DNA from: Eledone cirrhosa
Lineage: Eukaryota
DNA length: 64,000 nucleotides
Direction: 5' to 3'
NCBI GenBank assembly: GCA_964016885.1
Contig: OZ024762.1
Span: 3,968,001 to 4,032,000, forward strand
Each line of letters starts with the position of its first letter. Position 1 is the stretch's first letter. The position numbers and the translations under genes were made by a program. Shown piece by piece: positions 22,103 to 35,344 of this stretch. The notes under the pieces were generated by a model. That model saw only the letters and a list, made by a program, of their open reading frames with translations. It was not told the origin of the DNA and ran no database searches.

Positions 22103-22818
22103 CTAGGATTCTTCAAATGTATTCCCCCACAGCAAAAGTTTCAGCTTTGGTTTCGAAGATGTGACGATTTTGATTCTATAGCGAAGGTTCTCAGAATTGG
22201 CTTCAGGGTTGAGTGTATCGCGGCCCAAGCGATTATAGCAGAGTTTCATCACATGCAATGTATGATTGCACTCGAGGGCATCTAAAACTGATGAGAAGCC
22301 ATCGTTTGTGATTTCACACATATTTAACCCAAAGCACCGAAGTGTTGTGTTCTCTTCGATTGCCTTCGAAAGTTTACGTGCTCCACTGTCCCCGATAAAG
22401 TTATTACTTAGGTCCAAATTTACAAGACAGGAGTTGTGGAGCAGCGACCAACAGAGGTTCTCGCAGCCAAAGGCAGTTAAACCACAGTTTTCCAGGTTCA
22501 ATTTCCTGAGACAAGAATCCTTGGCAAGGTGCTGTGAAATAATGTCTGTCCCTTCGTTGCCAATAAAATTCCGGCTCATATCAATATCGGTAAGACTGGA
22601 GTTGCAAACCAAAGCACTGAACAAGAACTTGCATCCAGACCAGGTAATGCTACTGCTGCGCAAACGTAATTTCTTTAGGGCCCTGTTTTGGCGCAACATT
22701 TCTGCAATGTGCACACAACCCTCATCGTCGATTTCTACAAAACTGAAATCAAGATCTTCAAGGGCCATGTTGTGTTTGAGAGCGTCGCAGATCCTCTTAC
22801 AGCCAGCACCGTCCATTC
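22103..22818 (-). CDS. Terminal coding exon of the CARD-like + LRR protein (about 7 RI-type 28-aa LRRs, NLRC3/NOD-like LRR region)
   Basis: 237-aa ORF with repeated LxxLxLxxNxIGDxGxxxLxxxL motifs. The acceptor tctgtttttcag|GA at 22819/22818 joins the upstream phase-1 donor in frame (..LSSTG-MDGAGC..). TAG stop at 22103-22105. Confidence 0.92.
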
Positions 22819-23168
22819 CTGAAAAACAGAGAGAAGAAATATATAAATAAATAAGATATATAAGTAAATATCAATGAAGTTTTATTTTATTGGTTTGTGA
22901 GAGAGGGGTCGTACTCCATAACACTTTCCTGGGGAAGGGAGAGAATGGAAAGGGAATGTATGTATGGATGTGTATGTACATGTACGTATGTATGTATGTA
23001 TGTATGTGTGCGGGTATGTAAGTGGATGTATGTATGTATGTATGTGTGCATATGAAAGTGTGTGCCAATATGCCTATAAATATGTGTGTGTGTCAATAAG
23101 ACTATCATCATCATCATCATCTATATGTGTATGATATGTGTATACTATATGTGTATGATATGCCTATA

Positions 23169-23475
23169 CAGTGTACCCCTGACATTCGTGGTCCCAGTTA
23201 TTATTCAAGGGATCATAAATATCTTCTGCAATTTTTTTAATGGCTTTTTTCGTGGCAATATATATTTTTTAACACTAAATCATTAATAACAATAAACTGT
23301 ATTTCCCGACCTACTGGAGGCCCTTCGCATAAGATGCTCCCTCTTTTTTTATTATATTTTACGTTATATTTGGACGTCTATAGGCATTTTTATGGACCAC
23401 GTCCAATATTCGCGGCTTTTCACCCTTCGTGGGTCCTCTAGGAAGGTAACCTCCGTGAATACCCGTGGACAACTG
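23169..23475 (+). mobile_element. pogo/Tigger-like MITE (copy 1)
   Basis: TA|cagtgtacccctgacattcgtgg ... ccgtgaatacccgtggacaactg|TA; homologous along its length to 62236-62537. Confidence 0.75.
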
Positions 23476-23552
23476 TATATGTAGGTGTATATATATATGT
23501 GTGTATGTATACCAATAAGCCTATATGTGTGTATGTATGTACGTGTGTGTGC

Positions 23553-23696
23553 AAGCCAGCCAGACAACCAGTCTGACAGACAGACAGCCTGACAACCAGC
23601 CAGTCTGACAGACAGACAACCAGCCAGCCAGACAGACAGACAGCCAGCCAGCCAGCCAGCCAGACAGACAACCAGTCCGACAGACAGCCCGACAGA

Positions 23697-23750
<54 letters not shown>

Positions 23751-23881
23751 ACCAGCCAGCCAGCCAGCCAGACAACCAGCCAGACAACCAGCCAGACAGC
23801 CAGCCAGCTAGACAGACAGACAGCCAACCAGACAGACAGCCAACCAGCCAGACAGATAGCCAGACAGCCAGACAGCCAGAC
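23553..23881. repeat. (CAGC/CAGA)n tetranucleotide array
   Basis: Direct inspection. Confidence 0.95.
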
Positions 23882-24137
23882 TTAATGCGGCATCATGAGT
23901 GAATAAGAACTGTGAAGTTCAGAATCCAATATATTTTATACCCAAATCAATAATAATAAGGGAAGGGAGAGAAAGATGAATGGAAAGGTTTTTTTTAAGG
24001 AACTAGGGAGTAGATTAGGGCCCATAGGGTTGTGGTGGAGAAGCATGGGGTGGAGCAGATTGGTGGGGGGGAAAGATGCTATAAGACCTATGTACTCTTC
24101 CCTACCATTTCTATCACTGCACTAAAAATAAACAACA

Positions 24138-24392
24138 TACACACACATGTAATGTACATAGTATATACACACATGTAATGTACATAGTATATACACACAT
24201 GTAATGTACATAGTATATACACACATGTAATGTACATAGTATATACACACATGTAATGTACATAGTATATACACACATGTAATGTACATAGTATATACAC
24301 ACATGTAATGTACATAATATATACACACATGTAATGTACATAGTATATACACACATGTAGTGTACATAATATATACACACATGTAATGTACA
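24138..24392. repeat. 26-bp minisatellite, ~9-10 copies
   Basis: Unit tacacacatgtaatgtacatagtata. Confidence 0.93.
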
Positions 24393-24989
24393 CAAAATGT
24401 ACACACACACAGCACAACACACTCACTCACACACAGCACATCACACCCACACTCACTCACACACACATCACACCCACACTCACACACACAGCACATCCAC
24501 AACACACATACACTCACACACAACACAGCACACCTACACTCACACACACAGCACATCCACACTCACAACACACATACACTCACACACAACACTCACACAT
24601 ACAACACAGCACACCCACACTCACACACACAGCACATCCACAACACACATACACTCACACACAACACTCACACATACAACACAGCACACCTACACTCACA
24701 CACACAGCACATCCACACTCACAACACACAACACATCACACCTACACTCACACACACACAACACAGCACACCTACACTCACACTCACACACACACACAAC
24801 ACATCCACACTAGCCCATACAGAATCAATTATGAAAGAAAATCACTGATGAAAAGGGTTTTTAGGGAACTGAGGTGAGGTGAAGTACTGGGGTGGGGAGG
24901 GGGAGATGCTAAAAGATTCCACCCCCACCTCAGTACCTTCCACCATTTCTACAAACAACACATATACACAAGCAACACATAGCAGAATA

Positions 24990-32822: not shown

Positions 32823-32862
<40 letters not shown>

Positions 32863-32903
32863 CGAAACATAAGTCAATTGCATGAACTCATAATCCTTTA
32901 TTT

Positions 32904-32959
32904 ACTGCTATATATATTTCGATGATAGCCATTGAATGGCTATGAGCTCATCAGGCAGT
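32904..32959 (-). ncRNA. Type-I hammerhead ribozyme motif (intronic, sense to the CARD-LRR gene)
   Basis: Minus strand reads ACUGC-CUGAUGA-G-cuc-AUAGCCAUU-c-AAUGGCUAU-cau-C-GAAAUAUAU-AUA-GCAGU. Perfect 5-bp stem I, G10.1-C11.1 pair, palindromic AU stem III, AUA triplet. Confidence 0.55.
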
Positions 32960-33049
32960 TAGTCAGTTCTTAGATATGCCAGCTCTGTGTTTATAGTGTT
33001 GATGGTATCAGAGCCTTGGGACATATATATATATATATATATATATAGT

Positions 33050-33212
33050 CCACACTGTAAACGTGGTTGGTGTTAGGAAGGTCATCCAACTGTAGAAAAC
33101 CCGCCAGACAGTCCTATGCGAGCAAGACAACCACTCTTGCCTCAAGTGGGAAAACTCCCGTCCAAACCCTTGCAACCGTGGAAAATGGACGTTAAACGAT
33201 GATGATGATGAT
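33050..33212 (+). mobile_element. SINE family B-related 3' part
   Basis: ggttggtgttaggaaggtcatccaactgtagaaa...ggacgttaaacgatgatg; matches 13468-13615. Confidence 0.75.
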
Positions 33213-33263
33213 ATATATATATATATATATCACTCACTCATGAGTCGAGTTTCCTCGATCTAA

Positions 33264-33560
33264 TCAACAGTACTCTAGCCATTTGTCTTGATCTAACATC
33301 AGTCCAAGATCTGTTAAATTTCCTCCCGTGTCAGCACATAACATATCCAGATACATTGTTGCAGGGTGACCTCTGCTGCTATGACCATCTACGGGCTTCC
33401 ATAAAAGAACACGACTGACACACTTGTTTTCTGCCCTGTAACAATGTCCAGCAAAACGTATCCATCTTAGACAAACAATATTCAACACTGGAGGACGAAC
33501 CAGGCAGACGTCTCCATTTGTGTCTGTGTCGCCAACATGTGTTGAAAGTGTGTCTCACTT
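33264..33560 (-). mobile_element. Degenerate 3' fragment of an RTE-type LINE
   Basis: RFAGHCYRAE...VLLWKPVDGHSSRGHPA..Y.DML..DTG...DQDKW motif. Confidence 0.8.
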
Positions 33561-33874
33561 GGGGAACAAGCCTGATCAAATAAAAACGGTTGTTTCTGAC
33601 AGGGCTTACTGGAAGGGGTGTTTAGGGCTCTGCCTACACTCCCAGGAATAAGTGGAAGAAGAAGAAGAAGAAGAAGAAGAAGAAGAAGAAGAAGAAGAAG
33701 AAAGAAAGAAAAAGAAAAAGAAAAAGAAAAAGAAAAAGAAAAAGAAAAAAAAGAAAAAAAAGAAGGCATATGATGGTAAAAGGAGGAGGAGATGTCTACC
33801 TTTCCAATAAAGGACTGGAAGAAGAAAGTAAAATAAATAAATAAAAACAAAAGGTTATAAAAACTATAAGTTAC

Positions 33875-35344
33875 CTGTTGATGATAGATTGAGTTGCCTG
33901 AGGGTAGAGTTCTGTTCCAGGGCGTTACCAATCATTATGGCTCCCTCATTGCCAATATTGTTCAGTCGTACATCCAACACAGTTAAACTGTTGTTTTTTT
34001 GCAAAGGTATCGATAACAAGCCAATGTCAGAACCTGTGAGTTGTGTCTTACCAAGACAGAGTTCCAATACACAGTTGTATCTGTGAAGTACCTCGGCCAA
34101 AATCATTGCTCGTTTACCTTGTAAGTTGTGTCCAAGAATACTTACTGTCATCATCGGCACCAGGTTAGTCTTACCATTGCCGTTAATGTCCATAGTGCTA
34201 TTTTGCTGGTCCTTAGACAAAAAACCAGATGATATCTGTGATGAACAAGAGCTGGAGTTGTGTAAATCCCACTTTCCGTTTATGTTTTTGATACGCTCAA
34301 GTTCCACGACAGGCTTCAGTTGACGGATGGACTCGTCATAGAAACCTACGTCAAACTTCACCGTCGTTTCATCGGCAAGGACGTTGTCTTCTTCGTCCGA
34401 ACACTGTATGTCTGATATCATATATGATATTCTGGTCATGGAGTCAAGAATGTCAGAGATATCTCTATAACCATCAGTATTACGTAATACATTACAGAAC
34501 GACTCATACTGTTGACTGTCACCCCGAGATACGTTGTTTACCAAACTCTCACAGACCAACCTCTCGTCTGGATGACCATGGAATGCTTGCAAGTCGCCCG
34601 TGGTTATCACATGCTCCTTGTACATTTTCTCGATAAGATCCACTGGTCTCATACGCTGACATAAAAGATCTGTAAGGGAATGCAATATGGTGCTGTGTCG
34701 GGTGATCTTTTCACGAGCATTTTGGGGATGGCCAGAAGCAGACAAGTCCATTTTGATACGCATCGGGTTGCTGTTTGAGGAGTATTTGATCCGTTTCTCT
34801 TCACAGTTTGATTTGGTCGTTAAATCTGGACTCACTTGAATGACAGTTTCAGACTTTTGTGGGGACAAGGTCCTGTGACATGGATTAGGATTGTTCAAAA
34901 AGCGTCCATTTTCAATGTTAATCGGAAATTTGATAATAGCTTCCTCTCTGGAATTCGGGCTCGGGGACATGAGAAACGAATTCCGTGATGAAGACGGGGT
35001 TATCGAGTTTCTGTGATTTGTAATGGAAGTAGATCGCATCAGGAACAATCTCGGGGGCTTCGGGGGTGGCTTTAACGACTGAGATCGTCGCAGTGCATTA
35101 TTATCAAGGACATCGGGAAGATCTTCAAGATGATCATCTTCCTCAGCTGATACACCGTTAGACAGATGGATGGTTTCTTTGAGAATGCACTCACGTCTTC
35201 CCCGGCCTTCTGCATGGCTCACTAGAATGCTGCCACCATATTCACCTCGATCGCCACCTTTCTTATCGTTAGCATTTCTCCGGGAGGACAATCTCCTCCA
35301 GAACTTCCAGGCGGGAGCATGAGTTGTTGGTGGAGAGCCACGGT
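33875..35344 (-). CDS. Internal coding exon of a CARD-like + LRR protein (disordered N-terminal part, CARD-like domain, first LRRs)
   Basis: 475-aa complex ORF (33864-35291) that stays open upstream to a polypyrimidine/CAG acceptor (ctctctcttccag|ac, exon start 35344). Donor ACAG|GTAACT at 33875/33874, phase 1. ORF aa ~195-283 (HSTILHSLTDLL...SRGDSQQYESFCNVLRNT) resemble caspase-2/RAIDD-type CARDs (cf. RGPQAFDAFCEALRET). ORF aa ~380-472 are 28-aa RI-like LRRs. Confidence 0.9.

What the first reader, a model, noticed from the sequence alone, without database searches (positions are those of the whole stretch)
22103..35344. NACHT-less CARD-LRR protein: an NLR-like architecture without the nucleotide-binding domain
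Seen in sequence: the two exons splice in frame to give at least 727 aa. The order is a disordered N-terminus, a CARD-like domain (~34709-34443), a ~100-aa linker in the SAME exon, then ~10 RI-type LRRs. No Walker A/B or NACHT motif lies between CARD and LRR, and no intron interrupts that stretch to hide one. Established: NOD1/NOD2/NLRC4 are CARD-NACHT-LRR, and the NACHT drives oligomerisation. Inference: this may be an invertebrate sensor or adaptor linking LRR recognition directly to CARD-CARD caspase recruitment, or a decoy regulator of NLR/apoptosome signalling. Pipelines would probably label it only 'NLRC3-like'.
Basis: partly seen in the sequence, partly recalled or inferred. Interest (0 to 1): 0.75.

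Follow-up and report, generated by a model that had tools for sequence, protein, structure and literature searches.

The report
Ancient NACHT-less CARD-LRR scaffold family
This octopus gene is real, spliced and conserved across molluscs and a brachiopod; it joins a predicted cell-death signalling domain (CARD) directly to leucine-rich repeats with no ATPase switch between them, and likely works as a membrane-tethered adaptor for a fixed host partner rather than as a pathogen sensor, although databases label it an immune NLR.

Summary
Observation confirmed. Two minus-strand exons (35344-33875, 22818-22103) join in frame to 727 aa; spliced contigs from two studies show the junction. The first exons lie 47-155 kb upstream, add only about 15-85 residues and hold no NACHT. 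The domain is a CARD fold (best Z 14.1, caspase-9/Apaf-1/CED-3 class), followed by a beta-hairpin and ten 28-residue RI-type LRRs with caps. The gene is single-copy here; orthologues span four mollusc classes, the brachiopod Lingula and one unnamed lineage, and the tree follows the mollusc classes. This fits a conserved adaptor, not a diversifying sensor. It fails the NLR definition; NACHT loss from an NLR and caspase binding are untested. Ten literature searches found no description. The scan had not noted this family before (one different mollusc CARD-TPR family was noted).

The parts
33875..35344 (-). Exon A (1470 nt, phase 1/1): disordered region, CARD, beta-hairpin, LRR N-cap and first 3 repeats
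   Evidence: Sequence and splice sites; covered end to end by spliced contigs X5 and X1
22103..22818 (-). Exon B coding part (716 nt incl. TAG): LRR repeats 4-10 and C-cap; first AATAAA/ATTAAA near 21963
   Evidence: spliced to exon A
22819..33874 (-). Intron, 11.06 kb, GT-AG, microsatellites and repeats; no NACHT-like sequence
   Evidence: tblastn with 4 NACHT proteins hit only exon B LRRs in the window, positive control L022 was found
35286..35309 (-). WKFWRRLS basic-aromatic motif with a basophilic-kinase-like RRxS site (role inferred)
   Evidence: W[KR]FW[RQ] in 35 of 40 molluscan sequences; not seen in Lingula or P0265
35031..35090 (-). RRSQSLKPPPKPPRLFLMRS: PPKPPR, class II SH3-ligand-like (consensus recalled), flanked by RxS sites
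   Evidence: PP?KPPR in 39 of 40; PPPKPPR also in Lingula and P0265
34407..34700 (-). CARD-fold domain, six helices with long H1 and H6
   Evidence: Pfam; AlphaFold2; VIA-align Z 14.1/13.4 to the caspase-9-Apaf-1 CARD entries, 12.3 CED-4/CED-3, 12.2 Apaf-1
34287..34364 (-). Conserved beta-hairpin plus short helix (FDVGFY...LKPVVELER), predicted to pack between CARD and LRR N-cap
34165..34286 (-). Disordered Ser-rich loop (about 40 aa); RxS/RxxS in 38 of 40 by a loose pattern
   Evidence: pLDDT under 50 for residues 353-394
33875..34154 (-). LRR N-cap strand/helix and repeats 1-3
22121..22258 (-). Last repeat and family-specific C-cap (LKLCYN...LKLLLWGN)
   Evidence: L[LI]WGN in 40 of 40, also in Lingula and P0265

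Best explanation
The gene encodes a conserved, low-copy CARD-LRR protein without NACHT that likely works as a membrane-tethered signalling adaptor: a predicted rigid CARD-hairpin-LRR module would hold one fixed host partner on its invariant concave face, behind a disordered tail that would anchor and regulate it. Shown: exons, splicing, absence of NACHT, alternative short first exons, conservation pattern. Predicted: CARD fold, and docking of CARD helices 1 and 6 on the hairpin and LRR N-cap, which leaves helices 2-4 and the conserved H3-H4 loop free. Inferred: the MGxxxSC isoform is myristoylated (and possibly palmitoylated) and the Cys-rich isoform palmitoylated, so first-exon choice sets location; PPKPPR binds an SH3 protein; RRxS sites give kinase control; the free CARD face recruits a CARD partner, with membrane clustering in place of NACHT-driven oligomerisation.
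For: No NACHT: 0 of 45 homologues carry PF05729 in precomputed domains, 0 of 20 scanned; one 2795-nt contig of a relative runs MG exon - 60-nt exon - exon A - exon B; no NACHT-like match in 214 kb of window plus upstream DNA while the control locus was found. Fixed partner: concave positions 5, 7, 8 of the repeats have mean top-residue frequency 0.89, 1.00, 0.94 in 40 molluscan sequences against 0.39-0.77 at the exposed loop and helix positions, each repeat with its own residue; 16 of 30 of these are kept in both distant orthologues against 26 of 128 other exposed positions. One match in the own genome; cephalopods 100/100, gastropods 100/100, bivalves 95/94 each form a clade. Rigid module: AlphaFold2 pTM 0.68, above the 0.54-0.59 that my arithmetic allows if the CARD floated; as two chains of the O. 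vulgaris orthologue, ipSAE 0.73 against best control 0.00, runs agree in at least 71% of contacts, partner pLDDT at least 83; the mark was reached by 51 of 78 solved and 2 of 108 mismatched pairs (eukaryotes: 39 of 65 without a like complex, 2 of 126 unrelated); two parts of one chain tend to pass, so this supports the intramolecular contact only. Lipid anchor: 27 of 29 MG-start records among 104 family records have Ser6, 25 of them Cys7, in four mollusc classes and Lingula; this genome has that exon and an X5 contig covers it with 0 differences.
Against: No partner, tissue or localisation data were obtained. The lipid, SH3 and kinase roles rest on recalled consensus motifs. The MG start is isoform-specific and was not seen in P0265/P0293; WKFW is mollusc-only. 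Part of the concave conservation is the generic RI consensus (D 31% at position 5, S 42% at position 7 in 2845 background repeats). The CARD is divergent: Pfam CARD hit only 5 of 19 family members at E up to 0.1, 2 over the cut-off, and the position aligned to Apaf-1 E40 (a caspase-9 contact, recalled) is non-acidic (L, V, I, Y or M) in the five commonest states, 39 of 40, so it may no longer bind CARDs. CARD interface residues are no more identical than the rest of the CARD (0.57 vs 0.56), only conserved as hydrophobic.
Confidence: 0.55

Rival explanations
1. NACHT-independent sensor: the LRR detects a conserved danger or microbial signal and the CARD directly recruits and activates a CARD-caspase.
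For: Closest folds are apoptosome CARDs; this genome has CARD-caspases and at least 17 CARD matches; NOD1/NOD2 are conserved sensors that need acylation for membrane signalling (PMC12326153, passages), so conservation and lipid anchors do not exclude sensing of an invariant ligand.
Against: No oligomerisation domain; molluscan NLR-type sensors vary widely in copy number (PMC9646362, PMC3879445, passages) whereas this gene is near single-copy; H1/H6 predicted buried; Apaf-1 E40 position not acidic.
Confidence: 0.17
2. The CARD has been recruited as a purely structural N-cap of the LRR solenoid; the protein is an LRR scaffold in a non-immune, non-death pathway (cytoskeleton, cilia or kinase/phosphatase signalling).
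For: Large predicted CARD-LRR interface, 85-99 contacts; weak Pfam CARD scores in molluscs; RI-type LRR neighbours include ciliary and cytoskeletal proteins; tail motifs look like general signalling motifs.
Against: Residues outside the predicted interface (D253, G259, H260, D262, E268) are 90% or more conserved in molluscs, and distant orthologues keep clear CARDs (39.4 bits for P0265; 45.8 for the two Lingula copies). The GHPD motif itself is absent from Lingula and P0265.
Confidence: 0.18
3. Decoy or brake: an NLR- or apoptosome-derived inhibitor that sequesters caspase, Apaf-1 or NLR CARDs without being able to oligomerise.
For: A CARD fixed on a bulky solenoid with its helix-6 face blocked could cap a CARD filament (inference and recalled CARD assembly geometry).
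Against: Does not explain the invariant LRR face, the conserved tail motifs or the alternative N-termini; no link to NLR LRRs.
Confidence: 0.1

Closest known systems
NLRC-type receptors (NOD1, NOD2, NLRC3, NLRC4; invertebrate CARD-NACHT-LRR)
   Same: N-terminal CARD and C-terminal RI-type LRRs in that order; NLRP14, NLRP5, NLRP3 and NOD2 LRRs are among the sequence and fold hits.
   Different: No NACHT, winged-helix or helical domains; CARD predicted to sit directly on the LRR cap; 200-aa motif-bearing tail; near single-copy and invariant.
Apoptosome CARDs (caspase-9, Apaf-1, CED-3/CED-4, Dronc/Dark)
   Same: Best structural matches of the CARD, Z 11-14, rmsd 1.8-2.8; Apaf-1 CARD is the best natural sequence match, E 0.056.
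   Different: No NB-ARC, WD40 or caspase domain; only 8-18% identity; charged contact positions differ (contact roles recalled).
Ribonuclease inhibitor (RNH1) and other RI-type LRR proteins
   Same: Best sequence hit of the family profile, E 5e-85; fixed protein partner on a conserved concave face.
   Different: RI has no CARD or tail and alternating 28/29-residue repeats (recalled); here repeats are uniformly 28 residues.
PIDD1 and LRRD1 (death-fold plus LRR without NACHT; recalled, not tested by a call)
   Same: LRR and a death-fold domain in one chain with no NTPase.
   Different: They carry a death domain rather than a CARD, other LRR classes, and PIDD1 has ZU5/UPA domains; none of these was found here.

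Membership tests
NLR (NACHT + LRR definition) | Central NACHT P-loop NTPase | tested here: not met
   full transcript of a relative leaves no room. Definition as in PMC3879445 (passages).
NLR (NACHT + LRR definition) | C-terminal LRRs | tested here: met
   LRR_6; 10 repeats plus caps
NLR (NACHT + LRR definition) | N-terminal effector death-fold domain | tested here: met
NLR (NACHT + LRR definition) | Descent from an NLR (LRR closer to NLR LRRs than to others) | tested here: inconclusive
   Family LRR profile: orthologues 268-277 bits; coral NLRs 89-124; non-NLR RI-type proteins 80-137; own-genome NACHT-LRR locus 6.6
CARD domain family | Six-helix death fold of CARD type | tested here: met
   Model pLDDT 90; ranks 1-30 of the wide search are CARD entries or a CARD-like design, first death domain rank 31 (Z 8.7), first pyrin rank 35
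CARD domain family | Pfam PF00619 gathering score 23.9 | tested here: inconclusive
   Window 23.4; P0003 26.2, Lingula 45.8 for two copies, P0265 39.4; 14 of 19 family members had no hit at E up to 0.1
CARD domain family | Homotypic CARD-CARD binding | not tested
Apaf-1/CED-4 apoptosome adaptors | NB-ARC domain and WD40 repeats | tested here: not met
   No such Pfam hit; no Walker A
RI-like LRR class | 28-29-residue beta-alpha repeats with LxxLxLxxN/C | tested here: met
N-myristoylated proteins | Gly2 with Ser6 and actual acylation | not testable with these tools
   Motif present in one isoform class; consensus recalled; modification needs an assay

The most novel reading that the evidence does not exclude
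A half-billion-year-old lophotrochozoan death/immune switch that replaced the NACHT ATPase with lipid anchoring: ligand on the invariant LRR face clusters the membrane-bound protein, and its exposed CARD face nucleates a caspase platform with no nucleotide-binding domain at all.
Probability: 0.17. Interest if true: 0.82.

Novelty: new variant of a known kind. Interest (0 to 1): 0.55.

Why it matters
Every characterised CARD+LRR protein I know of uses a NACHT to oligomerise (recalled). A family that has kept CARD docked directly on LRR across molluscs and brachiopods gives a clean test of whether CARD signalling can be triggered without that switch, or shows a CARD turned into a solenoid cap. 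It also matters for annotation: these records are named NLRC3 or NLRP-like, so mollusc immune studies that count or assay 'NLRs' by name may include this non-NLR. Single copy, known exon structure and invariant surface residues make it directly testable in squid, oyster or snail.

Tried and rejected
Hidden NACHT in the intron or upstream exons: rejected. Upstream exons inside the window: none found; found outside. No run on record as RNA was listed; the spliced contigs are the evidence, and library type is not on record. Range outside lophotrochozoans is open: the representative search was swamped by long LRR proteins (150 of 79,078 hits listed); the Lingula non-LRR query found nothing; the alignment search scored only 7995 candidates, gave one new orthologue among 28 hits and did not return the molluscan members, so none of this shows absence elsewhere. 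ESM Atlas gave only generic LRR clusters under 0.9 and no usable hit. Foldseek on the whole model matched only the LRR part; on the CARD it gave no E under 0.001 though Apaf-1 CARD ranked first. Family CARD profile against this genome's CARDs named no clear sister (best 25 bits). One loose Walker A match (1 of 40) lies in an LRR helix. Literature: 10 searches found no description of the family or of six orthologue LOC ids; subscription journals are mostly not held, one mussel immunity review was not held, and supplements were not read, so a mention in a domain table may exist.
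Full report
Observation. The window is repeat-rich octopod DNA. On the minus strand a 503-codon open frame holds exon A (35344-33875) and a 255-codon frame holds exon B (22818-22103), both with canonical splice sites in phase 1. Joined, they give 727 aa, 89.7% identical end to end to an Octopus vulgaris model. Two contigs from two studies are spliced at this junction: X5, 99+% alike, and X1, a relative; X6 and X8 run through unspliced. 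Library types are not on record.

No NACHT upstream. X5 continues 5' into an exon 47 kb upstream at G000:C23:4050895-4050652, which starts MRSMLNLL and includes a Cys-rich MSVCSVLYSVERAFC segment. A second start, MGSAFSC, lies at 4158655-4158565 and splices through a 60-nt exon at 4089467; X1's single 2795-nt contig covers that first exon at record 230-343 and exon A at 396-1868 and goes on into exon B, and an X5 contig covers the MG exon with no difference and stops at the same edge (its further 63 letters were not shown). A third candidate start of 14 codons lies at 4103228 (E 0.001, expression not shown). Four NACHT proteins found no NACHT-like match in the window or 150 kb upstream but did find the control locus L022; the genome-wide NACHT search gave 2 matches, on other contigs, among 21 candidates.

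Family. Exon A found 45 proteins among 6022 candidates, named from 21 genera of cephalopods, bivalves, gastropods and a chiton, none with a NACHT domain. The full-length profile added Lingula anatina (a model with two tandem copies), and an alignment search added an unnamed record, P0265/P0293. Both keep PPPKPPR, the CARD, the hairpin, the N-cap strand, repeat-specific LRR residues and LLWGN, and score 268-277 bits on the family LRR profile against at most 137 for ten other LRR proteins. In a 32-row tree of the folded core, cephalopods, gastropods and bivalves each form a supported clade; Babylonia and Candidula have two rows each (29 database rows chosen as one or two per named genus plus two unnamed, truncated models left out). 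The own genome gave one match among 11 candidates.

Structure. AlphaFold2 on the O. vulgaris orthologue with 40 sequences: residues 1-212 and 353-394 disordered, six helices 218-314, a beta-hairpin 330-347, then 12 strands 398-721; pTM 0.68. The window's own domain folded alone at pLDDT 90 and matched CARD entries at all top ranks, best Z 14.1 (rmsd 2.5, 100 aligned) and 13.4 (1.9, 92) in the caspase-9/Apaf-1 entries, then CED-4/CED-3 12.3 and Apaf-1 12.2. Pfam support is weak in molluscs (5 of 19 hit) but clear in the distant orthologues. A pTM of 0.68 exceeds what an unplaced CARD allows by my arithmetic (0.54-0.59). Folded as two chains, CARD and hairpin-LRR scored 0.73 against best control 0.00, with runs agreeing in at least 71% of contacts and partner pLDDT at least 83; the mark was reached by 51 of 78 solved and 2 of 108 mismatched pairs, and parts of one chain tend to pass. 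The interface is CARD 221-233 and 297-317 against hairpin 331-353 and N-cap 398-428. No solved structure among the Foldseek hits covered both parts (query TM at most 0.40).

Conservation pattern. The repeats are exactly 28 residues. Concave positions 5, 7 and 8 are 0.89, 1.00 and 0.94 invariant over 40 sequences, as high as or higher than the core leucines, with repeat-specific residues such as K435, R462, F519, R544, R546, E602, N658, C686; 16 of 30 persist in both distant orthologues against 26 of 128 other exposed positions. Some of that is generic consensus. In the tail, PPKPPR is in 39 of 40 and W[KR]FW[RQ] in 35 of 40; 27 of 29 MG-start isoforms have Ser6.

Mechanism. Shown: gene structure, splicing, no NACHT, low copy, invariant LRR face, alternative starts. 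Predicted: CARD fold and its docking on the LRR cap. Inferred: lipid anchoring set by first-exon choice, SH3 and kinase input through the tail, one fixed host ligand on the LRR, and a CARD partner on the free H2-H4 face. I give this adaptor reading 0.55; structural-cap scaffold 0.18; NACHT-free sensor that activates a caspase 0.17; decoy 0.10. Against Apaf-1-like caspase binding, the position aligned to Apaf-1 E40 is non-acidic and that of caspase-9 R56 is an invariant acid (alignment, counts; contact roles and caspase-9 numbering recalled).

Comparison and novelty. It is not an NLR by the NACHT+LRR definition (PMC3879445, passages). Surveys I read in passages list invertebrate NLRs as CARD- or Death-NACHT-LRR, NACHT-LRR or NACHT alone and do not mention CARD-LRR (PMC11508797; PMC9334734; PMC3308963; PMC8662601; PMC9646362; PMC8998645; PMC11874512). 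A squid study lists an 'NLRC3' transcript whose identity I could not check (PMC10844198, passages). Ten searches found no description; the library lacks most subscription journals and I read no supplements. The sequences are in public databases under NLR-like names. Earlier scan notes held nothing for this sequence or place; one note concerns a different mollusc CARD-TPR family. Verdict: a real, undescribed, ancient family with a new arrangement of known domains; function untested; interest 0.55.

Noticed in passing
P0046, P0048-P0050, P0053-P0055: Octopus bimaculoides and O. sinensis models end at the exon A donor and read into the intron, losing seven repeats and the cap; either an annotation artefact of fragmented assemblies or a real short isoform.
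   Followed up: no
P0113 (Lingula anatina model): 1539-aa model is two near-identical tandem copies of the gene fused into one; probably a recent duplication or haplotype artefact.
   Followed up: partly
L006 (G000:C17:35820650-35822038): Single-frame CARD-caspase with IQCCR in place of the usual QACRG pentapeptide (usual form recalled); L014 and L021 are further single-frame CARD-caspase-like genes.
   Followed up: partly
L013, L015, L018-L020 (G000:C2:233.69-233.83 Mb): Cluster of five genes with a CARD followed by what looks like a death domain (RAIDD-like by eye; second domain not tested).
   Followed up: no
L022 (G000:C9:1476445-1478457): This genome's NACHT + divergent LRR-like locus; no clear Walker A at the start of the NACHT match.
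   Followed up: partly
window 46066-48131 (+), 16878-17255 (+), 62994-63371 (+), 1324-1584 (+), 33267-33554 (-): Broken fragments that look like non-LTR retrotransposon RT or endonuclease ends by eye; the five frames scanned had no Pfam hit at E 0.01.
   Followed up: partly
window 21297-21557, 26948-27160, 28575-28808, 28965-29216, 31376-31609: Five or more copies of one short interspersed repeat of about 250 bases, in both orientations.
   Followed up: no
window 10963-12301, 14337-15921, 36380-37423, 37689-38410, 39972-40439: Homogeneous minisatellites with 56-, 46-, 48-, 40- and 42-base units.
   Followed up: no
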